Assembly (NCBI GenBank): GCA_964401835.1
Contig: CAYNZP010000011.1
Span: forward strand, 18,812-82,811
From: an uncultured Planctomycetaceae bacterium
GTDB lineage: Bacteria; Planctomycetota; Phycisphaerae; SM23-33
Direction of reading: 5' to 3'
Length of the DNA stretch: 64,000 nt
Below are positions 5,909 through 59,519 of this stretch, piece by piece. The stretch's first letter is position 1; each line of letters begins with the position of its first letter. The notes beneath the pieces are model-generated. The model was not told the origin of the DNA and did no database searches. It was given only the letters and a program-made list of their open reading frames with translations. Both the position numbers and the translations under genes were made by a program.

Positions 5909-7183
5909 TCAATATGCTCTGAAAAGGCTGGCTTGGGGATAATAGAAATCGAGAATCTCTTTTGCCTTCAGGCCCCTTTTGACCTTTCCTTCCACGCCCC
6001 ACTGACAAATCCCGACGCCATGGCCGAAACCCCGGCCTTGGGTAAACTCTATCGAGTCACCGGCATCGACAATTTTGCAGTTCATTGAAAAAAGCCTTTT
6101 GGCTTCTGGGATATTCGAACGCAAAATCGCCAGCCGCAAATCTTCAGCTCTCACTCGAACAGTCTTTCCTTGCGGATCGACGACATTAATCCATACGGGC
6201 CGTGCGCCGGGGGCGGTGGAAGTTACCTTTATCGTCTCCAAGCTGTTAAGTTGCTTTGCGGCAGGATATGCTGCGGAAATGACACGATGGATATCCGACT
6301 TTTTGATCGAAACGGTTTTCCAGCGATAACGGCTTGATGCTCGACAATCCTGGCATTTTGGGCCGCCGGCAAGTGGTGGAATCTCCGGTGCGTTTCGGAT
6401 TACATAGGCCCCGTTTACCACACCCCCGCAGGCTGAGGAATATTGGGACATGAAAATCTGTTCTTTTTTCTTCGGCCCATAGGCCAGAACCACACCGTGA
6501 GTTTTTCTGACCGCAGCCCAGGACTTGTCCGTCTCCCCAGTAAAGCCGCCGTAGACCTGCGAGGCCTGGGAATCTCCAAGATCGTACTGATGGGTCTTGC
6601 CGAAGGTCTTCATGTGATGGATAGCGAAGGTTCGTGCTGCCACGGCCAGTGTCTTGTATGTTTCCAGCTGCCACGATGGATAAAGTTCTTTCGAGAGAAC
6701 ACCGGCCAGATAGCTTTCCATATCGACATGGTTGACGACGAGGAAGCCCTTATCGCCAGTTGGCACTAATCGCATCATGCCACGATAGATGGTCTTATCT
6801 TTTCGTGCAAAACTGCCCGGAAGGGGTTTTATATCTATGCTTTCGCTTTCGACGGTCCGCCTGCCGATCTTCCAGGATTTGCCCGAACGTGTAACCTGGT
6901 TCAGAGCAAGCGGAGTCATTGATTCAACCAGCATGCGGTTTCCTGAAACAATCCGATAACCGCCCGTGGTGGAAATTGTCTCACTCGTTACGGGCCTGGA
7001 AGTAAGCAGTACGCGGATAATTGGGACGCCTTTGGTGGTCAGCGGCTGATCTGGAGGAAGTTGCGGTTCGACGCCACAGCTCCACAGGAACAACGCCGAA
7101 AGGATGCAAGCTATGGCCAGGCAAAGCGCCGGCCCAACAAGCGCGGCAAACTTTCCTAGTCGATATATTATCCAAGCCGTCAT
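5909..7183 (-). CDS. SpoIID/LytB-domain lytic transglycosylase-like protein
   Basis: YRGxMRL, VVNHVDMESYLAGVLSKE, AVAARTFA, SQVYGG, GRGFGHGVGICQWG, ILDFYYP. Confidence 0.88.
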   Translation of the reverse strand: MTAWIIYRLGKFAALVGPALCLAIACILSALFLWSCGVEPQLPPDQPLTTKGVPIIRVLLTSRPVTSETISTTGGYRIVSGNRMLVESMTPLALNQVTRSGKSWKIGRRTVESESIDIKPLPGSFARKDKTIYRGMMRLVPTGDKGFLVVNHVDMESYLAGVLSKELYPSWQLETYKTLAVAARTFAIHHMKTFGKTHQYDLGDSQASQVYGGFTGETDKSWAAVRKTHGVVLAYGPKKKEQIFMSQYSSACGGVVNGAYVIRNAPEIPPLAGGPKCQDCRASSRYRWKTVSIKKSDIHRVISAAYPAAKQLNSLETIKVTSTAPGARPVWINVVDPQGKTVRVRAEDLRLAILRSNIPEAKRLFSMNCKIVDAGDSIEFTQGRGFGHGVGICQWGVEGKVKRGLKAKEILDFYYPQASLFRAY

Positions 7184-7221
7184 GGCGTTTTCTTTCGAAA
7201 GTCGCCGTAAAGTTTAGCGAT

Positions 7222-8547
7222 CTAAATAGTCTCGCGCAGGCCCAGGCCATAATCCGAAAGACGTTGGCGTATCTCGTTCAGGCTGGTCTGGCCGAAGTTC
7301 CGGCAGGCCAAAAGTTCCGGCTCGCTCTTGGCCGCAAGGTCACCCAATGTGCTCACGCTGAGTCCTTCCAACGCTTTGCGTGCCCGGACAGAAAATTCAA
7401 TCTGTTCCAGCGGAGTGGAGAGGATGCCGCCGTCCGCATTTTCCGAAGGCTCTGAGTTGAATTTCAGAGTCATCTTTCGCTCTTCTTCCATTGCCTGGCC
7501 AAGTCGGAGGTTCTTCGCTGTGAGCATCTCTTTAATTTCCTTTAGCGATGTCTCGCCGAAGTTCTTATATGCCAGAAGCTCAACTTCGGTGGTTCTGACG
7601 AGGTCGCCAAGTGAGCGGATATTCATCTTCTTGAGACAGTTTCTTGCTCTTACGGAAAGCTCGAAGTCAGTAACGGGGATATCCAACACGGCATTGTGGC
7701 GTGCGATCTGCTTGGCCCGGTCTTCATCGTAGAACATCGTCATCGAAGATTCGATATCCTTGAGGAAAAGCTTAACCCTGGCGTGATTAGGGTTGCAGGC
7801 AATAAGACGCATCAGACATTCATACGCCTGTTCATATCTGCCGGCGTCTTCATGAAGGATCGCTAGATTCAAAAGTGCATTGGCAAAAATCGGAGGCTGG
7901 GATACGCACTTCTTGTATAGTTCAATAGCCTCTTCCTCTTCACCGTAAAGATCGCTGAGATAAGCCAGTCTGAACGTCGCGTTGATATGATCTTCATCAA
8001 TCTCGATTGCTTTGGTATAAGCGTCGGCCGCCTTCTGGCGCAGGCCCGCAAGGTCGTCCAGTAAGCCGCGAAGAAAATAAAAGTCTGCACTTTCGCCGAT
8101 CTTTCCGCTCAGCTTGTCCAACAGCTTTTCGGCGCCAGTAACATCACCGTCCAATGCCTGTGTCTCGACGAGAAGAAGGTCGACCTCAAGTCCGTCCCAA
8201 CCGCGGTCCTTGGCCCTTTGGAGTTCTTCCCCAGCCTCTTGATACTTATGAAGCATCTTGAGGCACTGGCCCTGGAAATAATGCCTGTCCTTGTTGTCGG
8301 TGCCATCGGCCAGAACACTGAGAGCTTCGCTGAATCTGCAAAGCATGAATTTCAGCATGCCAATCTTGAGAGCTGCTGAACCTTTGGGGGCGGGGTCCTG
8401 TTCTTCAAGCTCGATAAGTATCTGCCTTAACTTTCCAGTGGCGTCCTTGAAATCTACAACCTTCGAAAGGACCTCTTTATGATCTTCGAAAGACCATGCT
8501 TCCTTTGCGACGATTGCCCCTAACTCATCCTGTAGAACCTGATCCAT
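7222..8547 (-). CDS. TPR-repeat protein with two C-terminal RNA polymerase alpha-CTD-like domains
   Basis: TPR-like helices, then two copies: ELSVRARNCLKKMNIRSLGDLVRTTEVELLAYKNFGETSLKEIKEML and EFSVRARKALEGLSVSTLGDLAAKSEPELLACRNFGQTSLNEIRQRL. GGAGAAGG RBS before ATG 8547. Confidence 0.88.
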   Translation of the reverse strand: MDQVLQDELGAIVAKEAWSFEDHKEVLSKVVDFKDATGKLRQILIELEEQDPAPKGSAALKIGMLKFMLCRFSEALSVLADGTDNKDRHYFQGQCLKMLHKYQEAGEELQRAKDRGWDGLEVDLLLVETQALDGDVTGAEKLLDKLSGKIGESADFYFLRGLLDDLAGLRQKAADAYTKAIEIDEDHINATFRLAYLSDLYGEEEEAIELYKKCVSQPPIFANALLNLAILHEDAGRYEQAYECLMRLIACNPNHARVKLFLKDIESSMTMFYDEDRAKQIARHNAVLDIPVTDFELSVRARNCLKKMNIRSLGDLVRTTEVELLAYKNFGETSLKEIKEMLTAKNLRLGQAMEEERKMTLKFNSEPSENADGGILSTPLEQIEFSVRARKALEGLSVSTLGDLAAKSEPELLACRNFGQTSLNEIRQRLSDYGLGLRETI

Positions 8548-8670
8548 GAATACCTTCTCCAAAGAACTTATAACTTAATTACCTAGCAATTGGCCTAGGC
8601 GGCCAGATCGGGTATTATAGCGACGTTGAAATTAACTTCAAGCCGTTCCGCACGACGCGAAAATCGAGCT

Positions 8671-9612
8671 ATGACTGAAAACGACAAAAATAAACCGGTA
8701 CACATGATAATTAACCCGCACAGCGGATATGGCGGCCACCGCCTGATGCTGAGCGACTTCCGCGCCGTAGTGCGAAACGCGGGTCTGGAGATTGTCGAAT
8801 ATGTCACAAAGGCTCCCGATGACGCAACCCGCCGCGCCCGGGAAATAGCCGATAGCGCCTCGGCTGTCCTTGCATGGGGAGGCGACGGCACGGTTAACGA
8901 AATAGCCACCGCCCTGGCTGGAACAGACGTTCCGATTCTCGCCTGCCCGGTGGGTACGGAAAACCTGCTGGCAAAAGATTTACAGATTCCAGCCAACCCG
9001 AAAAAGATCATTGAACTTCTCCATGCACGGCGAGTTGTCGACTGCGACCTGGGAGTTGTCAATGGCCGACACTTCCTGCTTATTATGGGCATCGGCTTCG
9101 ACGGTGAAGTAGTGCGGCGCCTGGCTGCGACGAGAATAGGCCATATCTCGCACCTTAGCTACTTCTGGCCGATATGGCGCACATTCTGGGAGCACGATTT
9201 CCCGAGGATGAAGATCGTCGCAGACGGCGAGGAAATTTTCGATGACTTCGGCCTGGCCTTCATTGGCAACATTTCCCGCTATGCGGTGGGGCTGCGAATT
9301 TGTCGCGACGCCCTTTTCGACGACGGTTATCTGGACCTGGTCGTCTTTTCCTGTCGAGAACAAACCGCACTTATGCTCCATGCCACATGGACACTTTTGA
9401 GACGCCACCCTCTTAAAGGCAATGTCACTTACCGACGCGTTAAGGACGTAACGATCGAGACAGACCGCCCTGTCCCCAGCCAGATCGATGGAGACGTCGG
9501 GCCATCTACCCCGCTGCATGTTTCTGTGGAACCGAGCAAGGTAAAGCTTATAATTCCGCCACGGAAACCACCAAGCGTTCTTTGGCCATGGAGGGGAGGA
9601 CAAATAGTATGA
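8671..9612 (+). CDS. Diacylglycerol/lipid kinase family protein (YegS/BmrU-like)
   Basis: IINPHSG, GGDGTVNE, PVGTENLLA, GIGFDGEV, DDGYLD, QIDGD. Confidence 0.9.
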   Translation: MTENDKNKPVHMIINPHSGYGGHRLMLSDFRAVVRNAGLEIVEYVTKAPDDATRRAREIADSASAVLAWGGDGTVNEIATALAGTDVPILACPVGTENLLAKDLQIPANPKKIIELLHARRVVDCDLGVVNGRHFLLIMGIGFDGEVVRRLAATRIGHISHLSYFWPIWRTFWEHDFPRMKIVADGEEIFDDFGLAFIGNISRYAVGLRICRDALFDDGYLDLVVFSCREQTALMLHATWTLLRRHPLKGNVTYRRVKDVTIETDRPVPSQIDGDVGPSTPLHVSVEPSKVKLIIPPRKPPSVLWPWRGGQIV

Positions 9613-10442
9613 GCAATAAAAATGATTCAATAAAAACCTGCAGCATTTCAGACGTCCAGATAGGTGATGGCAAGCTCGCGCTTATCGCCGGGCCTTGCAT
9701 GGCAGAGAGCCTGCAGATGTGTGTCGATATTGCTGGCAAGCTTAAGGACGTTTGTAGCCGCGTTGGTGTTGGATATGTCTTCAAGGCCAGCTTCGATAAG
9801 GCCAACCGCTCCAGCGTAGAGAGCTACCGCGGGCCGGGGCTGGAAAAAGGGCTCGATTGGCTGGCGTCTGTGAAAGAGCAAATCGGCGTACCCGTGCTCT
9901 CAGATGTGCATGAAGTATCGCAGGTTGTTTCCGCAGCCGAGGTGTTGGACTGCATCCAGATACCTGCGTTTCTCTGCCGACAGACCGACCTTCTCGTAGC
10001 TGCGGGCTTATCCGGCAAGTGCGTCAATATAAAGAAGGGCCAATTCATGGCCCCGTGGGATATGTCCCAGGCGGTCAACAAAGTCCGCAGCACCGGCAGC
10101 GAAAAGGTACTGCTGACCGAGCGTGGAACCAGCTTCGGATACAACCGCCTTATAACGGATATGCGGGGCATTCCGCAGATGCAGGAATTCGCACCGGTAG
10201 TCTTCGATGCGACACACTCTGTCCAGGAACCCGGGGGGCTCGGAAATGCTTCCGGCGGGCGGCGTGAATATGCACTTACTCTGGCGTCAGCCGCACTGGC
10301 AGCCGGGGCAAACGCGCTGTTCATCGAAACCCACCCCGAGCCCGACAAGGCCAAATCTGATGCCGCCTGCCAAATTCCGGTTGATGAAATGGAACAAGTC
10401 CTGCAGCGATGCAGTGCTGTCTTCCAGGCCGTCAAAGGTTAA
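9609..10442 (+). CDS. kdsA: 3-deoxy-8-phosphooctulonate (KDO8P) synthase
   Basis: IAGPC, FKASFDKANRSS, QIPAFLCRQTDLL, NIKKGQF, ERGTSFGY, FDATHSVQEPGG. Confidence 0.95.
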   Translation: MSNKNDSIKTCSISDVQIGDGKLALIAGPCMAESLQMCVDIAGKLKDVCSRVGVGYVFKASFDKANRSSVESYRGPGLEKGLDWLASVKEQIGVPVLSDVHEVSQVVSAAEVLDCIQIPAFLCRQTDLLVAAGLSGKCVNIKKGQFMAPWDMSQAVNKVRSTGSEKVLLTERGTSFGYNRLITDMRGIPQMQEFAPVVFDATHSVQEPGGLGNASGGRREYALTLASAALAAGANALFIETHPEPDKAKSDAACQIPVDEMEQVLQRCSAVFQAVKG

Positions 10443-52007: not shown

Positions 52008-52176
52008 GCTATTAATCCTCCAGAATAGGTTTTTGTGCCTTTAATCAAAGGCAACAGGCTCGATAAAGATTATATAGGAGGACCCAGAAACTGGCAAGAA
52101 ATGATATTTGGCACTTTTGGCGCATAAAAATGGTGGCACTAAGCCATTTCCCGCTAAAAGCCTTTCCTATTGCCAC

Positions 52177-52205
52177 TTGAAACGTCTCGCATTGCAACGT
52201 ATAAA
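52177..52205 (+). promoter_or_regulatory. Sigma70-type promoter for dnaN
   Basis: TTGAAA-N17-TATAAA. Confidence 0.6.
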
Positions 52206-52248
52206 CACGCATTGGAAATCTGACATTTCAAAGAAGGAAGAATCGATT

Positions 52249-53349
52249 ATGAAGGTTATCGCACAGACAACTGCGTTGCAGGAGGCATTGGCACTTGTCG
52301 GCAGTATCGTAGCGACACGCACTCCCAAGCCGGTATTGCAATGCGTCAAACTCATCGCCAAGGACGACACACTGACACTGCTGGCAACCGACCTCGAAGC
52401 CGGGGCCCGTTATCAGATAACAGCTGTACAGATCGAGGCCGAAGGCGAAGCACTTATCCCGGCAGACAGGCTCAGCGGCATTGTTCGCGAGTCATCCTCT
52501 GAAGAGAGCCTGACGATTGAAACCGACAAGCAGACAGTTCACGTCGAAGGTGCCGGCAGCCACTTTAAGATTTTCGGTTATGACGCGGGCGAATACCCAG
52601 CCGTCGCAGAATTCAACGAAGACCCGGATTTTCAGGTCCCCGCGACAGTTTTGGCTAATGCCATCGGCAAGACTCTTTTCGCCACTGCTAAGGCACACAG
52701 CCATTATGCGATAAGCGGCGTTCTCTGGGAAGCATCCGGCAAGAAGCTGATGCTGGTAGCGACAGACGGGCATCGCCTTGCACAGGCCAGGGGTTCGCTT
52801 AGCAAGTCGACCAAGGGCGACATTGCAGCTATCGTTCCAGCCAAGCTTATGGGTCTTATCCAGAGGATAGCCGGCGACGGCGAAGAAACTCTCGATATCA
52901 AGATCAGCGAAAATCAGATCCTTATCCGCACCGCAAGAGCGGTTCTTGTCAGCTCGCTTGTCCAGGGCAACTTCCCGAAATATGGAGATGTAATACCCAA
53001 GGACTGCTCTATAAAGGCTACTATAAATACCGGGGAATTAGAGCATCGCACCCGACAGGCGGCCCTGCTGACAAACGAAGAATCCAAGGGCGTCAGGTTA
53101 AGTTTCAAGTCAGGGCAGGTGACACTTTCCAGCCGGGCACCGGAAACCGGCGAGGCGGAAGTAAACTGCCCAATAGAGTACGAAGGCAGCGATCTGGAAA
53201 TTGCGTTCAACCCGGCATTCCTGACCGACGCAATGCGTGTAATCGAGACAGACCAGATTACCATTGAGATGAATGCCTCAAACAAGCCGGCAGTTATCAA
53301 GTCCGGAAGCGACTTTTTATACGTTTTGATGCCTGTCGATCTGGGTTGA
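52249..53349 (+). CDS. dnaN: DNA polymerase III beta sliding clamp
   Basis: ATDLE, VATDGHRLA, GNFPKY, IAFNPAFL, YVLMPV; AAGGAAG RBS. Confidence 0.95.
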   Translation: MKVIAQTTALQEALALVGSIVATRTPKPVLQCVKLIAKDDTLTLLATDLEAGARYQITAVQIEAEGEALIPADRLSGIVRESSSEESLTIETDKQTVHVEGAGSHFKIFGYDAGEYPAVAEFNEDPDFQVPATVLANAIGKTLFATAKAHSHYAISGVLWEASGKKLMLVATDGHRLAQARGSLSKSTKGDIAAIVPAKLMGLIQRIAGDGEETLDIKISENQILIRTARAVLVSSLVQGNFPKYGDVIPKDCSIKATINTGELEHRTRQAALLTNEESKGVRLSFKSGQVTLSSRAPETGEAEVNCPIEYEGSDLEIAFNPAFLTDAMRVIETDQITIEMNASNKPAVIKSGSDFLYVLMPVDLG

Positions 53350-53515
53350 TTTTTTTCTTCAAATAAATATAAAAGTTTCTGTCTTGACTATGGCGATGAA
53401 ATTAATAGTCTGTTGGCAATAGCAGTGTGTAACAGCCTGCTGAATCCGCCCGAGTTTTTTGATTTTGCGGATGCTTGCGGTCAAGGATGTCCGAGCCGGT
53501 AACTAAGGTGCACTC

Positions 53516-53896
53516 ATGGATGATGCTCAACTGAGAACTATCTGGCAGCAACGACAAAAACGCCCAGGTTTTGGGCACCTCAGCCAGTCTCTAACCTTCC
53601 TGATGAAACGCACTCTTGCAAAGAAAGTACGCCAGCTTCAAAACCTGGCGGAAATCTGGGATGAAGTCATTCCACAAAACCTGGCCGAACACACAGCCCT
53701 TGAAAGCTTCAGCCAAGGCGTATTGACCGTAATCGTCGATTCAGCCTCGCACCGCTTTCATCTTGAGACGCTACTGAGAAGTGGGATATTCAAAGAGATT
53801 CAATCCCGCTCTATCGGAGCAATCAACAGAGTAAAGATCGTGCCGGGACAGTTCAGCTCGGTGGACATGGCCGGTCAGCAAAGATACGAATTTTAG
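53516..53896 (+). CDS. DUF721/DciA-family protein
   Basis: LAEIWDEVI...HT..ESFSQGVLTVIVDSASHRFHL; position directly after dnaN. Confidence 0.75.
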   Translation: MDDAQLRTIWQQRQKRPGFGHLSQSLTFLMKRTLAKKVRQLQNLAEIWDEVIPQNLAEHTALESFSQGVLTVIVDSASHRFHLETLLRSGIFKEIQSRSIGAINRVKIVPGQFSSVDMAGQQRYEF

Positions 53897-56292: not shown

Positions 56293-56521
56293 AAAATAAA
56301 CTTAAATAGTCAATTTGCTATGTGAGTATAGTGGTGGGAGCCACCTTGTAGCATACCAATATTAGAGCCTTTCAGTTGGCCGTGTGGTGGGATTTGGGTT
56401 TGATTTTTCTTCTATTTTCATCTGCTTCTGGGCTTTTTCAGATGAAGATTGAGTTTGAACACAGGATTTCGCATAGACCACAAAAAAGGCAATAATAATC
56501 CAACTCACCAAACACGGACCG

Positions 56522-57262
56522 TTAATGCTTAATTATGAAAGTGATAATTGTAATAACAATTGTCAAAACCATTCCAGCTATAGCCCAATTACGAGCTCTT
56601 TTTGCATGAGCGGTTTGTTGGTCGGCGGAAGCCCTGTATTGTTCATAGGCTTGCTCATCTTCCATGGCAAGCTCTTTTTCAACTTCCAAAAGCTCAGGTT
56701 CGTGGCTTTCTAGCTCTTCAAGGATATCTTCTAGAGATTCTATAGCATCTTTGTATTTCTTGAAGAATGCTGGATGCTCATCTACTTTTTCCGGTTCAAC
56801 ATCTTTACCAAGTTTAGCTTCATTACACAATTCTAGCGCTTTTTTGAGTGGTTCTCTGATTCTTGTAGAGTAGCTATTCATAACTGTACACAAAGTGGTT
56901 ATCCTGAAACTATCCAGAATATATCTATTGATTTTTCTTACCCTATCGAGGGCTATTATGTCCAGAGCATCGTATCCTGCTCGATAAACGTGCCCAGTAG
57001 CTTTTTCGAGGTTTTTGTAAGAATATAAATAAGGATTTGGCTCTGTCCCTTCTTTCGGATCCTGGCCCTGTCGCCAAACCGCCTCAGCACGTATGTTGTG
57101 GTCAAAGGCATTTCTGAGTTCATTTAAAGCGGGTACCGAGACACGGCTTCTTTTCGACAATTTTTCGCTGCTTATTACGTACCCTTTTACTTCCCAATAC
57201 AGCTCTACAAGTTTTTCTACAAGGTCTCGTAATTTAAGGTCTTGCTCAGGATTCAAAGACAA
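56522..57262 (-). CDS. AT-rich helical protein with Rx4H (HEPN-like) motif and C-terminal TM anchor
   Basis: NELRNAFDH; HVYRAGYDALD; C-terminal WAIAGMVLTIVITIITFII; AAGGGG RBS before TTG. Confidence 0.75.
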   Translation of the reverse strand: MSLNPEQDLKLRDLVEKLVELYWEVKGYVISSEKLSKRSRVSVPALNELRNAFDHNIRAEAVWRQGQDPKEGTEPNPYLYSYKNLEKATGHVYRAGYDALDIIALDRVRKINRYILDSFRITTLCTVMNSYSTRIREPLKKALELCNEAKLGKDVEPEKVDEHPAFFKKYKDAIESLEDILEELESHEPELLEVEKELAMEDEQAYEQYRASADQQTAHAKRARNWAIAGMVLTIVITIITFIIKH

Positions 57263-57324
57263 CGCCCCTTTTGGAAAAGAAACAATTCAAATAAATGACA
57301 GAAACTCAAGATGTGTTAAGAGAA

Positions 57325-57528
57325 TCAAGCGGTCTCAAGCCGAGCAAGAAGTCGGGTCGTTTCATGGTCCCAATCAGCTTCGACTTCGTCACGATAAATC
57401 GCTTCTTGATTGGCGAGGTTGACATTCCCCCGCACTTCTGCGCCTTCCGGCCAAGCGAAGTCACCAGCACATGAAGCATTCAATCCATCGCAATTGAAGA
57501 CTTTGTCCTTAATGATGTTTGTCACCAT
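57325..57528 (-). CDS. Small acidic protein co-oriented upstream of the Rx4H gene
   Basis: 67 aa; GAG/GGGG RBS; TATAAT about 23-28 nt upstream of ATG; 62-bp gap to the next gene. Confidence 0.6.
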   Translation of the reverse strand: MVTNIIKDKVFNCDGLNASCAGDFAWPEGAEVRGNVNLANQEAIYRDEVEADWDHETTRLLARLETA

Positions 57529-57593
57529 ATTTTCCCCACTCTCATAAGTAATTATACGCCGAAACTATTCGGCATTATGTCCAAAAACATAAA

Positions 57594-57623
57594 GGCAGCC
57601 TCTCTATCCTAGAGAGAGCTGCC
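57594..57623 (-). terminator. Hairpin (probable terminator) upstream of the two-gene unit
   Basis: ggcagc-ctctct-atcct-agagag-a-gctgcc; T-rich tail on the minus strand. Confidence 0.45.
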
Positions 57624-58280
57624 GAATCCTTCCTGATCCATTTTGATGGTTTAGCTTCCATGCCTTGGGTTTATCGACAAAACTAGGGGTGTTGCTTTGC
57701 AAAAACACCAAAACCTCCATTCATGATCGCCGTATTTGAATCACAGTCAAGGATAAATCAGCAAGAATTACGCACATTCTCATGCTTTCAACTCCTGCTG
57801 TTAATGCCTAAATATGCAGTAAGTCCTTACAAAAACAACCCCTATGACTTAAGGCCAGTTCTTTTGGATAACCTCATTTCATGTTTTTTGCGGATTATTA
57901 TCCGTTCATGCATCATCTTGAGCAATTTTCTTGCGTCTCATCATGATGGTAGCAGTTGCTCAGATTCATGATCAATCCTCAAGATGAACTCATCCTCACA
58001 GATTGAGCAATTCCTGCAAACCACCTCATCCTTACCATCACAACCATAATTATTCATACAAACCGGTTATCAAAAATATATCCAAGAACTTTAAGAGCTT
58101 ACGATATGGGGATTAAAAATGTTTTAAGTTGCCTGTTCAGCAGCACGTTTGGTTTGCCTTGCTGCGTAAGCATCTTAGGGCAATAAGACTGCTAACTCTT
58201 GTTATGGCCATTAACTGTTAACTCGCAGTTACTAACCTTAAGCTCTTCCAAAATAATACGTTATGCCAAGTGCTGCTATG

Positions 58281-59519
58281 TCAAAGGTTATCCAGCATGT
58301 GGCCCATCTTGTCTTTCTTGGCCTGCAGGTAATCGCGGTTATGGTCGTGTGCCTCGACTTCCACCGGCAAGCGCTCGACGATCTTCAGGCCGAAGCCTTC
58401 CAGTCCGTGAATCTTGCGAGGGTTGTTGGTCATGATCTTCAGCTTACGCAGGCCAAGGTCGCGAAGTATCTGGTTGCCCACACCGTAATCCCGCCTGTCA
58501 TCTTCGAAGCCGAGATGCAGATTCGCTTCGACAGTGTCCATGCCCTCTTCGATCTGGAGCTTGTAGGCTTTGAGCTTATTTACCAGACCAATTCCGCGCC
58601 CTTCCTGCCGGACGTAAACAACCGCGCCCTTGCCTTCTTTGGCTACCTGACGGAGGGCGGTTTTCAACTGTGACCCGCAGTCGCAGCGCATCGAGCCGAA
58701 CACGTCGCCGGTTAGACACTCACTGTGGACTCGTACTACCACGGGCTCTTCGTGGATAATCGGCTTCCCCTTCTTATCAAGCTGACCGACGCCGCCCATA
58801 CAAAGGGCGATGTGCGGATCGGGATCGACAACGGAAGTATAGGCGACCAGGTGGAACAGTCCCTCTTCGAGTTGCAGGTCTATTTCCACAGCCCGCTCGA
58901 TAAGCCTCTCACTACGCAGTCGATGGCGGATGATATCAGCCACGCTGCACATCTTGATATCGTGCTGCTTGCAGAACTTTTCCAGATCGTCGCGGCGTGC
59001 CATCGAACCGTCTTCGTTCATTATCTCGCAGATGACAGCCATCGGCTTCATTCCGGCAAGGCGTGCCAGGTCTACCCCGCCCTCGGTCTGGCCGGCACGG
59101 ACCAGAACACCACCATCGCGCGCACGCAACGGGAAGATATGCCCCGGCCGGGCAAGGTCAGTTGGCTTGGCGTCTGTTTTGCAGGCAACCTGAATGGTTC
59201 TTGCCCTGTCGGCCGCCGAAATACCGGTCGTTATTCCGGTAGCTGCGTCGACACTCACGGTAAATGCAGTGCTCAGCTTTGCGGTATTCTCAGTCGTCTG
59301 CGGATGCAGCGCGAGCTGGTCGGCAATGGCGTTCGTCATCGGCAGACAAATCAGGCCGCGAGCGTGCTTGGCCATGAAGTTGACAATCTCCGGCGTGGTC
59401 GCCTCAGCTGCGCAGACAAGGTCGCCCTCGTTCTCGCGCGACTCGTCGTCGACTAGGACTATCATTTTGCCAGCCTTGAAGTCAGCCAGGATTTCTTCAA
59501 TTGTTAAATAGTTACTCAT
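58281..59519 (-). CDS. ribBA: Bifunctional DHBP synthase / GTP cyclohydrolase II
   Basis: VDDESRENEGDL, RPGHIFPL, GQTEGGVDLA, VRVHSECLTGD, RCDCG, QEGRGIGL, MTNNPRK. Confidence 0.96.
   Translation of the reverse strand: MSNYLTIEEILADFKAGKMIVLVDDESRENEGDLVCAAEATTPEIVNFMAKHARGLICLPMTNAIADQLALHPQTTENTAKLSTAFTVSVDAATGITTGISAADRARTIQVACKTDAKPTDLARPGHIFPLRARDGGVLVRAGQTEGGVDLARLAGMKPMAVICEIMNEDGSMARRDDLEKFCKQHDIKMCSVADIIRHRLRSERLIERAVEIDLQLEEGLFHLVAYTSVVDPDPHIALCMGGVGQLDKKGKPIIHEEPVVVRVHSECLTGDVFGSMRCDCGSQLKTALRQVAKEGKGAVVYVRQEGRGIGLVNKLKAYKLQIEEGMDTVEANLHLGFEDDRRDYGVGNQILRDLGLRKLKIMTNNPRKIHGLEGFGLKIVERLPVEVEAHDHNRDYLQAKKDKMGHMLDNL

What the first reader, a model, noticed from the sequence alone, without database searches (positions are those of the whole stretch)
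56522..57573. Two-gene AT-rich unit: small acidic protein plus membrane-anchored Rx4H (HEPN-like) protein
Seen in sequence: an AT-rich insertion between the amidohydrolase and ribBA carries a 67-aa acidic ORF (…LNASCAGDFAW…YRDEVEADWD…) followed 62 bp later by a 246-aa helical protein with NELRNAFDH and one C-terminal TM helix. Established: Rx4-6H is the catalytic signature of HEPN RNases used in toxin-antitoxin and abortive-infection systems. Inference: an undescribed toxin-antitoxin or anti-phage pair in which the small protein neutralises or triggers a membrane-tethered RNase.
Basis: partly seen in the sequence, partly recalled or inferred. Interest (0 to 1): 0.7.

Follow-up and report, generated by a model that had tools for sequence, protein, structure and literature searches.

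The report
Conserved small-partner plus membrane-anchored protein cassette
The two AT-rich genes are a real, unannotated pair, a ~70-residue protein followed by a membrane-anchored helical protein with an invariant R-x4-H motif. The pair recurs across bacteria and archaea and looks like a mobile toxin/defence-type module, but a HEPN RNase fold could not be confirmed.

Summary
A 67-aa ORF (57325-57528, -) lies 62 bp upstream of a 246-aa all-helical protein (56522-57262, -). The large protein carries NELRNAFDH and one C-terminal TM helix. Both sit in a ~2-kb AT-rich tract between an amidohydrolase gene and ribBA.

- The large protein belongs to a big unannotated family (1080 clusters at 50% identity).
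- H55, H91 and R94 are invariant. E48, R50, D54, R58, K87, D98 and D101 are at least 90% conserved.
- A homologous small ORF lies just upstream in all 24 loci that have upstream sequence, in both bacteria and archaea.
- The two proteins co-evolve (Mantel r 0.85) and both are under purifying selection.
- The pair sits at a different place in each genome and is always more AT-rich than its host.

- None of 136 members hits a Pfam HEPN model.
- Foldseek with confident AlphaFold2 models finds no HEPN structure and no other significant match.
- The motif lies mid-helix in helix 2, not at the end of helix 3 as in HEPN.
- PADLOC is negative and neighbours are mostly housekeeping genes.
- The small protein's acidity is not conserved.

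Best reading (confidence about 0.35): a mobile toxin-antitoxin or abortive-infection-like cassette whose membrane-tethered effector has a HEPN-like, non-canonical catalytic centre. This is inference only.

The parts
57325..57528 (-). Small partner gene (67 aa). Core motif is WPEGAEVRGNVNL...RDEVEADW. In most relatives the motif reads D[IV]WDxDF...RGSVR[LI]SxGLFYTxEEF...PLP at the C-terminus.
   Evidence: ORF. One close homologue lies next to a large-gene homologue. A homologous ORF lies upstream of the large gene in all 24 loci with upstream sequence. A profile search finds 43 proteins, all 58-101 aa and hypothetical. dN/dS is 0.10-0.39.
56522..57262 (-). Large partner gene (246 aa from TTG 57262; 244 aa from TTG 57256 as called publicly). 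It encodes a tail-anchored, all-helical protein.
   Evidence: The family has 1080 clusters at 50% identity with E<=1e-3. dN/dS is 0.18-0.23.
57089..57121 (-). Motif 1, E48-L-R50-N-A-F-D54-H55-N-I-R58 (ExR-polar-x2-DHxxR).
   Evidence: H55 is invariant. E48, R50, D54 and R58 are at least 90% conserved in 136 diverse members. The motif lies inside helix 43-63 of the model.
56960..56995 (-). Motif 2, G90-H91-V-Y93-R94-A-G-Y-D98-A-L-D101 (GHxYRAGYDxxD) on the long helix 77-118.
   Evidence: H91 and R94 are invariant; D98 and D101 are at least 97% conserved. Y80, N84, K87, H91, R94, D98 and D101 lie on one helical face.
56531..56587 (-). C-terminal transmembrane helix W226-I244, with KRAR before it and only KH after it.
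   Evidence: A C-terminal hydrophobic segment is present in about 151 of 168 family members.
56300..58280 (.). AT-rich tract that holds the pair, plus about 750 bp of upstream DNA (57529-58280) without a supported gene.
   Evidence: Composition. No Rfam family. No excess of promoter or terminator matches. No flanking repeats. The pair is 5-20 GC points below its flanks in all 20 loci measured.

Best explanation
This is a horizontally mobile two-gene cassette whose products work as a complex at the cytoplasmic face of the membrane.

The large protein is tail-anchored. Its cytoplasmic helical domain shows an invariant set of polar residues on facing helices: K26 and E33 on helix A; E48, R50, a polar residue at 51, D54, H55 and R58 on helix B; and Y80, N84, K87, H91, R94, D98 and D101 on helix C.

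The most likely reading is a metal-independent, HEPN-style R-polar-x3-H ribonuclease centre carried on a non-canonical scaffold. The small, co-translated and co-evolving protein would be its cognate inhibitor, regulator or sensor. Loss or displacement of the small partner would then unleash the effector and arrest growth, as in toxin-antitoxin or abortive-infection systems.

Shown here: the pair, its conservation, its co-evolution, its membrane anchoring and its mobility signature. Inferred: the enzymatic activity, which partner is the toxin, and any defence role.
For: - The pair is conserved in 24 of 24 loci with upstream sequence, from Planctomycetota, Desulfobacterota, Omnitrophota, Leptospira, Bacteroidales, Bacillota and five archaeal lineages.
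- The gene spacing runs from a 4-nt overlap to 72 bp, with one case of 255 bp.
- Identity matrices of the small and large proteins correlate, Mantel r 0.85, with 0 of 5000 permutations as high.
- Both genes are under purifying selection.
- The R-[N/D/S/H]-x3-H motif is conserved exactly as described for HEPN active sites (PMC3710099).
- A second invariant motif, HxYR...D, is present.
- The neighbourhood differs in every genome, and the cassette is always more AT-rich than its host.
- Some loci lie next to type IIG restriction-modification genes plus a transposase, MADS genes, or an ApeA-type HEPN gene.
- The large gene is disrupted while the small ORF stays intact in L022 and L029; L019 also has a disrupted large gene, but its upstream region is cut by the contig end.
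- In Monoglobus the TM anchor sits on the small partner instead, which argues for a physical small-plus-large complex.
- A phage protein family of unknown function (phrog_9168) shares the motif region with 47 of 136 members, best E 1.1e-8.
Against: - No HEPN profile or structural relationship was detected.
- hhalign against an ApeA-type HEPN protein aligns only the 14-residue motif, at probability 0.15%.
- The motif is mid-helix in helix 2, not at the end of helix 3.
- There is no PADLOC hit.
- Only a few of 122 neighbouring ORFs are defence-like, and most are housekeeping.
- No copies were found in phage records or IMG/VR contigs, and only one was found in the plasmid records.
- The small protein has no recognisable DNA-binding or antitoxin domain.
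- The Monoglobus variant has lost R50 and H55 but keeps the pair. The conserved partnership therefore does not strictly need the Rx4H residues.
Confidence: 0.35

Rival explanations
1. The large protein is a non-enzymatic membrane effector. It would be a tail-anchored coiled-coil protein of the phage XhlA or holin kind that perturbs the membrane. The conserved polar stripes would be the docking surface for the small partner, which gates it. The cassette would still be a conflict-type module, but it would kill or arrest through membrane damage rather than RNA cleavage.
For: - The architecture is a helical domain, a coiled-coil stalk and a C-terminal TM helix.
- Members give weak PHROG hits to 'hemolysin' (phrog_937 in 7 members, phrog_1193 in 2) and to holin, over the stalk and TM region.
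- The conserved residues of helix C form a stripe of about 21 residues on one face, which is longer than a compact catalytic site and looks like an interface.
- The Monoglobus variant lacks R50 and H55 yet keeps the pair, with the TM on the small partner.
- No nuclease fold was detected.
Against: - Invariant His, His and Arg plus Asp, Glu and Lys across more than 130 diverse members is more typical of catalysis or ligand binding than of a protein-protein interface.
- The PHROG hits to hemolysin and holin are weak (E>=4e-4) and could reflect composition only.
- A single tail-anchor with 1-3 external residues is a minimal pore former.
Confidence: 0.25
2. The pair is an accessory but non-conflict membrane-associated complex. 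Examples would be an envelope or membrane stress factor, or a regulator that binds a small ligand or nucleic acid. It would be neither a toxin nor a defence system.
For: - Neighbours are overwhelmingly housekeeping or metabolic genes with no recurrent third partner.
- There is no PADLOC hit.
- The family is absent from the phage collection and from IMG/VR contigs, and nearly absent from plasmids.
- The weak top Foldseek hits include VIPP1/PspA and ESCRT-III.
Against: - The distribution across distant phyla and two domains is patchy, and the insertion site differs in each genome.
- The cassette is always 5-20 GC points below its host.
- Disrupted copies occur.
- A phage family is related.
- The Foldseek hits are not significant (E>=0.1).
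Confidence: 0.2
3. The ORFs are chance reading frames in AT-rich non-coding DNA.
For: - The large ORF has a TTG start.
- There are no database annotations.
- Rx4H is common by chance.
Against: - The large protein has 1080 homologous clusters.
- The AlphaFold2 model has pLDDT 95.5.
- The small ORF is conserved between bacteria and archaea.
- dN/dS is 0.1-0.4 for both genes.
Confidence: 0.01

Closest known systems
HEPN superfamily RNases, such as Abi2/Swt1, ApeA, RnlA and the KEN domain (Anantharaman et al. 2013, PMC3710099)
   Same: - Both are all-alpha.
- The R-[N/D/H/S]-x3-H motif is invariant, with a polar residue after R.
- Conserved acidic residues lie nearby (E33, E48).
- Both occur in small mobile operons.
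- Membrane-tethered HEPN proteins are already known, in three groups.
   Different: - No profile or structural similarity to any HEPN family was found.
- The motif is mid-helix in the second helix, with only one helix before it.
- Extra invariant residues are present: D54, R58, and HxYRxxxDxxD on the next helix.
- The anchor is a C-terminal tail anchor, unlike the three TM-HEPN architectures described.
Type II toxin-antitoxin modules with HEPN toxins (HEPN-MNT, RnlAB/LsoAB)
   Same: - It is a two-gene, co-oriented, tightly spaced and co-evolving pair.
- The distribution is patchy and the location in the genome varies.
- Disrupted copies of the putative toxin gene occur.
   Different: - The partner is not an MNT nucleotidyltransferase and has no HTH, RHH or AbrB domain.
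- Toxicity, neutralisation and autoregulation are untested.
- The effector is membrane-anchored.
PICI-encoded HEPN/TM anti-phage system (named in PMC12948488; DefenseFinder 'FS_HEPN_TM', recalled from my own knowledge)
   Same: It combines a HEPN-type motif with a transmembrane element in a small anti-phage cassette.
   Different: - The comparison could not be run, because no model or sequence was available here.
- PADLOC-DB 2.0.0 gives no hit.
- That system comes from enterobacterial satellites, whereas this family is found mainly in uncultured anaerobes and marine Planctomycetota.
PHROG 9168 (phage protein family, function unknown)
   Same: It shares the conserved core, residues ~12-91: the end of helix A, the ExRx4HxxR helix and the start of the GHxYR helix. 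47 of 136 members match, best E 1.1e-8.
   Different: - The profile is 267 positions long with about 120 positions before the shared core. This implies a different architecture, probably without the stalk and tail anchor.
- No member could be retrieved for inspection.
- The window protein itself matches only at E 0.0065.
Phage XhlA-type 'hemolysin' and holin-associated tail-anchored proteins
   Same: Both have a coiled-coil followed by a single C-terminal TM helix. Weak PHROG hits cover that region.
   Different: - XhlA-type proteins are short and lack the conserved N-terminal domain.
- The matches are weak and possibly compositional.

Membership tests
HEPN superfamily | Conserved Rx4-6H motif with a polar residue (N, D or H) after R | tested here: met
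   R50 is present in 124 of 136 members and H55 in 136 of 136. Position 51 is N, D, S or H. The criterion comes from PMC3710099.
HEPN superfamily | [quoted passage not shown] | tested here: not met
   The AlphaFold2 models (pLDDT 95.5 and 87.9) place the motif in the middle of the second helix, 43-63. Foldseek against the PDB gives no HEPN chain. Best E-values are 0.1-0.6 with TM-scores <=0.42. A KEN-like circular permutation is not excluded, but nothing supports it.
HEPN superfamily | Profile-level similarity to at least one recognised HEPN family | tested here: not met
   No HEPN Pfam model is hit by any of 136 members at E<=0.1. NCBIfam gives none. PDB profile searches give none. hhalign against an ApeA-type HEPN protein aligns 14 columns at probability 0.15%. 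A full HHpred against Pfam and PDB70 was not available.
HEPN superfamily | Second conserved acidic residue, typically Ex3[KR] in helix 2, close to the motif | tested here: inconclusive
   E33 (130 of 135) and E48 (133 of 136) are conserved, but not as Ex3[KR].
HEPN superfamily | Metal-independent RNase activity that depends on R and H | not testable with these tools
   This needs biochemistry.
Type II toxin-antitoxin module | Two adjacent co-oriented genes inherited as a unit | tested here: met
   The pair is present in 24 of 24 loci. Spacing runs from a 4-nt overlap to 72 bp, with one case of 255 bp. Mantel r is 0.85.
Type II toxin-antitoxin module | Antitoxin with a DNA-binding domain, or a recognisable antitoxin family | tested here: not met
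   No Pfam family is found for eight small-partner sequences even at E<=10. All 43 homologues are unannotated.
Type II toxin-antitoxin module | Toxicity of one product that is neutralised by the other | not testable with these tools
   This needs expression experiments.
Known anti-phage defence systems (PADLOC-DB 2.0.0) | Match to a model of a known or candidate defence protein | tested here: not met
   There are 0 families for either protein at E<=1.
Known anti-phage defence systems | Enrichment next to defence genes (defence islands) | tested here: inconclusive
   Among 122 neighbouring ORFs from 23 loci, hits include 2 type IIG restriction-modification proteins, a few MADS proteins, and single CARF, AriA and DinG-like proteins. 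Most neighbours are metabolic or housekeeping. The sample is too small and no background was computed.
PHROG 9168 | Significant match to the family profile | tested here: inconclusive
   The window protein scores E 0.0065 over residues 30-108. 47 of 136 family members match, best 1.1e-8. This indicates a related core domain, not membership.

The most novel reading that the evidence does not exclude
The pair defines a previously undescribed conflict system that is widespread in both bacteria and archaea. Its effector would be a tail-anchored protein with a new all-alpha fold that has no neighbour in the PDB or BFVD. That fold would have arrived independently at, or diverged beyond recognition from, a HEPN-type R-x4-H ribonuclease centre. 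A new ~70-residue partner family would control it. A phage-encoded relative of the core domain (phrog_9168) hints at an arms-race role.
Probability: 0.25. Interest if true: 0.75.

Novelty: new variant of a known kind. Interest (0 to 1): 0.58.

Why it matters
Both gene families are absent from Pfam, NCBIfam and PADLOC. The large one nevertheless comprises more than 1000 clusters at 50% identity, spread over many bacterial phyla and at least five archaeal lineages, and it always keeps the same partner.

If the effector is an RNase or a membrane toxin, this would add a new membrane-tethered toxin-antitoxin or abortive-infection family, one that is prominent in poorly studied anaerobes, ANME and methanogenic archaea, and marine Planctomycetota. 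It would also supply a new fold carrying a HEPN-like active site.

If it is not a conflict system, it is still a conserved two-protein membrane complex of unknown function that is worth characterising.

The case also shows that an Rx4H motif on its own is weak evidence, because it arises in a third of shuffled sequences.

Tried and rejected
- **Structure search.** Foldseek of the full model and of the N-terminal domain model against the PDB and BFVD gave no significant hit.
- **PDB sequence search.** Sequence and profile searches returned only coiled-coil or TM noise such as SNAREs and fusion glycoproteins.
- **Family libraries.** Pfam, NCBIfam and PADLOC gave nothing for either protein. A Pfam scan of small-partner homologues also gave nothing, including no SHOCT hit, an idea I had from the GLFYTxEEF...K..VL pattern.
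- **Phage copies.** No confirmed locus was found in IMG/VR. tblastn against phage records with four queries, including a family consensus, gave only chance hits. One, in a Pseudomonas phage, turned out to be a 92-aa protein.
- **Empty site.** I looked for an empty site in relatives using the flanking amidohydrolase, but only relatives at 25-38% identity were found.
- **Reads.** Only three marine-metagenome DNA runs hold the sequence. One lacks contigs over 56540-58850, but depth there is about 3x and no joint was seen, so this is uninformative.
- **Integration hallmarks.** There are no tRNA-like or Rfam features, no flanking repeats, and no excess of promoters or terminators.
- **Third gene.** The 49-aa ORF at 56362-56511 and the 82-aa ORF at 57723-57971 have no counterpart in other loci, and no recurrent neighbour exists.
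- **Domain fusions.** Longer family members contain only a tandem duplication of the PDYY...KDV module or Pro/Ser-rich tails.
- **Literature.** Searches for a TM-anchored HEPN pair of this kind found only the three TM-HEPN groups of PMC3710099 and the PICI HEPN-TM system.

Full report
**1. The observation**

- The small ORF is 57325-57528, 67 aa, with an ATG start.
- The large ORF is 56522-57262, 246 aa from a TTG. The public gene call for the identical protein is 244 aa, which means it starts at the next TTG, 57256.
- The gap between them is 62 bp.

The small protein is acidic, with pI 4.35. The large protein contains NELRNAFDH at residues 47-55. It ends with KRARN-WAIAGMVLTIVITIITFII-KH, so it has one C-terminal TM helix with positive charges on the N-terminal side and two residues beyond it. 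That makes it a tail-anchored protein with a cytoplasmic N-terminal domain.

GC is 37-46% from about 56300 to 58280, against 52-59% on either side. The flanking genes are housekeeping: DnaN, DciA, a PNP-family phosphorylase and an amidohydrolase on one side, and RibBA, a CDP-alcohol phosphatidyltransferase and Memo on the other.

An Rx4H motif on its own means little. It appears in 33% of shuffles of this protein, and Rx4-6H in 70%.

**2. The large protein belongs to a big, unannotated family**

Pfam, NCBIfam and PADLOC give nothing, and PHROGs gives only one weak hit. A word-indexed search found 25 homologues, from Phycisphaerae MAGs and one Methanomicrobia MAG. A profile search of the 50%-identity representatives found 1080 clusters at E<=1e-3 and 685 at E<=1e-10.

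In an alignment of 136 diverse members:
- H55, H91 and R94 are invariant.
- K26, E33, E48, R50, D54, R58, Y80, K87, A95, D98, D101, K153, D154 and Y170 are at least 90% conserved.
- ExRx4HxxR is present in 141 of 168 sequences, HxYRxx[YFW]D in 142 of 168, and a C-terminal hydrophobic helix in about 151 of 168.
- The residue after R50 is N, D, S or H. This matches the HEPN description, 'typically polar, mostly N, D or H' (PMC3710099).

Longer members carry only a tandem duplication of the PDYY...KDV module, or Pro/Ser-rich tails beyond the TM. None has an enzymatic fusion.

**3. The small ORF is a real, conserved partner**

A same-strand ORF of 59-102 aa lies just upstream of the large gene in every locus that has upstream sequence, 24 unique loci in all. 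Gene callers had missed it in some of them.

The alignment shows an N-terminal D[IV]WDxDF, a central RGSVR[LI]SxGLFYTxEEF and a C-terminal PLP in most lineages. The clade closest to the window (Phycisphaerae-type MAGs) has a WPEGAEVRGNVNL...RxEV variant. One Arg (R33 in the window protein) is invariant.

Further properties of the small partner:
- The spacing between the two genes runs from a 4-nt overlap to 72 bp, with one case of 255 bp.
- Small-protein and large-protein identity matrices correlate strongly. Mantel r is 0.85, with 0 of 5000 permutations as high.
- dN/dS is 0.10-0.39 for the small gene and 0.18-0.23 for the large gene.
- A profile search finds 43 small proteins. All are 58-101 aa and unannotated, and none is fused to another domain.
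- Net charge ranges from -9 to +13, so acidity is a local feature and not a family trait.
- No DNA-binding or antitoxin domain is detectable.

**4. Distribution and context**

Species-representative genomes with the pair include Phycisphaerae, Planctomycetaceae, Ca. Scalindua, Deltaproteobacteria, Omnitrophota, Leptospira, Bacteroidales and Gallionellaceae. Archaeal carriers include Methanothrix, Archaeoglobaceae, Methanophagales, ANME-2 and Nanoarchaeia. A divergent copy is in Monoglobus pectinilyticus, a member of the Bacillota.

The neighbours differ in every genome, and there is no recurrent third gene. Of 122 neighbouring ORFs from 23 loci, most are metabolic or housekeeping. A minority are defence-like: two type IIG restriction-modification enzymes (one beside a Y1 transposase), MADS components, and an ApeA-type HEPN protein three genes away in one archaeon. 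This gives at most a weak association with defence.

The pair is 5-20 GC points below its flanks in all 20 loci measured. This fits repeated horizontal acquisition, although the Lys/Glu/Ile-rich composition of the proteins also contributes.

The large gene is disrupted in three loci:
- L019 and L029 have frameshifts.
- L022 has an internal deletion plus a stop codon.
- The small ORF is intact in L022 and L029.

No copy was found in IMG/VR contigs or phage records, and none in plasmid records apart from Monoglobus. The window comes from a marine metagenome, and only DNA runs hold it.

**5. Is it HEPN?**

At motif level, yes. At fold and profile level, no support was found.
- AlphaFold2 gives a very confident all-helical model (pLDDT 95.5, pTM 0.82). 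Its helices are 5-35, 43-63, 77-118, 121-127, 131-154, 157-186 and 188-245.
- The N-terminal 158 residues modelled alone give pLDDT 87.9.
- The Rx4H lies in the middle of the second helix. In HEPN it lies at the end of helix 3 of a four-helix up-down bundle (PMC3710099).
- A KEN-like circular permutation could in principle reconcile the helix order, but nothing supports that.
- Foldseek of both models against 350,542 PDB chains returns no HEPN chain and nothing with E<0.1. Top hits are designed bundles, VIPP1/PspA and BAR domains, with TM-scores <=0.42. BFVD is equally empty.
- None of 136 members hits any Pfam HEPN model, and PDB profile searches find none.
- hhalign of the family profile against the ApeA-type HEPN protein of locus L010 aligns only ELRNAFDH with KIRNQITH, which is motif on motif. 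That is 14 columns at probability 0.15%.

The conserved polar residues of helix C (Y80, N84, K87, H91, R94, D98, D101) form one continuous stripe on a single face, with resultant 0.85. This is longer than a compact catalytic site. It could be an interface or a groove for an extended ligand.

**6. Two side observations that bear on the mechanism**

- **PHROG 9168.** This phage family of unknown function is matched by 47 of 136 members, best E 1.1e-8. The match covers residues ~12-91, which correspond to profile positions 121-200 of 267. The conserved core therefore also exists in phage proteins with a different architecture. I could not retrieve a member.
- **The Monoglobus copy.** Here the small partner carries an N-terminal TM helix. 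The large partner has no TM and has lost R50 and H55, while keeping H91, D98 and D101. Since the anchor can sit on either partner, the two proteins most likely form a complex at the membrane. The partnership also survives loss of the Rx4H residues.

**7. Interpretation**

The best-supported statement is that this is a mobile, autonomous two-gene cassette encoding a membrane-tethered complex. What it does is inference.

| Reading | Confidence | Main basis |
|---|---|---|
| Toxin-antitoxin or abortive-infection-like module with a HEPN-style RNase centre on a non-canonical scaffold, controlled by the small partner | ~0.35 | Invariance of the R-polar-x3-H motif plus His, Arg and Asp residues; selfish-element behaviour of the cassette |
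| Non-enzymatic membrane effector gated by the small protein | ~0.25 | Weak XhlA and holin-like hits; the long polar stripe; the Monoglobus variant |
| Non-conflict membrane-associated complex | ~0.2 | Housekeeping neighbourhoods; no defence-database hit |

Chance ORFs are excluded.

**8. Novelty and verdict**

Neither family is described in Pfam, NCBIfam, PADLOC or the literature I could search. The membrane-associated HEPN groups already described have different architectures.

I rate it a new variant of a known kind, namely a small mobile effector-plus-partner cassette with a HEPN-like motif. There is about a 25% chance that it is a new fold and a new system.

Its interpretation is partly supported. 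The conservation tests were passed, the HEPN-fold test failed with the tools available, and function remains untested.

Noticed in passing
L036:5112-6618 (Monoglobus pectinilyticus 'plasmid 3', NZ_OY725727.1): This is a divergent version of the pair. The 102-aa small partner has an N-terminal TM helix plus the family's MGLFYSDE...IKLP tail. The 240-aa large partner lacks a TM and has lost R50 and H55 (SLKNAYENIIH), but keeps H91, D98 and D101. The two genes overlap by 4 nt, and a 159-aa four-TM protein lies directly upstream.
   Followed up: partly
L019:66-747; L022:3986-4700; L029:4010-4700: The large gene is disrupted in three species-representative MAGs. Two have frameshifts, and one has an internal deletion with an in-frame stop. 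The small ORF is intact in L022 and L029. These could be pseudogenes or assembly errors.
   Followed up: partly
window 56522-57262 (residues ~12-108) and family alignment A2: The phage family phrog_9168 (unknown function, 267 profile positions) is matched by 47 of 136 family members, best E 1.1e-8, over the conserved motif region. No phage member could be retrieved to see its genomic context.
   Followed up: partly
All related loci (L002-L034) and window 56300-58280: The two-gene cassette is 5-20 GC percentage points below the surrounding DNA in all 20 loci measured. This holds whether the host genome is 34% or 68% GC.
   Followed up: yes
L010:726-2189 and L006:3652-4656, 6796-9873: In a Methanomicrobia MAG an ApeA-type HEPN protein lies three genes from the pair. 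In a Phycisphaerae MAG the pair sits between a Y1 transposase and an MmeI-type IIG restriction-modification enzyme. These are isolated hints of defence or mobile context among otherwise housekeeping neighbourhoods.
   Followed up: partly
window 57529-58280: About 750 bp of AT-rich DNA between the small ORF and the end of ribBA has no supported gene, no Rfam match and no repeats. Long upstream spacers of 200-680 bp also precede the pair in other loci. The region could hold regulatory elements.
   Followed up: partly
window 56362-56511 (-): A 49-aa ORF starting 10 bp after the large gene has a hydrophobic N-terminus. It has no counterpart downstream of the pair in 18 other loci, so it is probably not a gene.
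   Followed up: yes
window 52108-53896: dnaN is followed by dciA just upstream of this region, so the cassette may lie near the chromosomal replication origin. This was not examined further.
   Followed up: no
window 56540-58850, run X3: One of three marine-metagenome runs holds contigs for both flanks but none across the AT-rich tract. Depth is only about 3x and no joint was seen. A strain without the cassette can be neither claimed nor excluded.
   Followed up: partly
Family members P0047, P0061, P0067, P0069, P0104, P0136, P0144, P0148, P0157: Members of about 300-366 aa contain a tandem duplication of the 'S..aI.aV.PdYY..I.P...KDV' helix module before the stalk and TM. Others (P0014, P0016, P0076, P0091) have Pro/Ser/Thr-rich tails beyond the TM helix.
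   Followed up: partly
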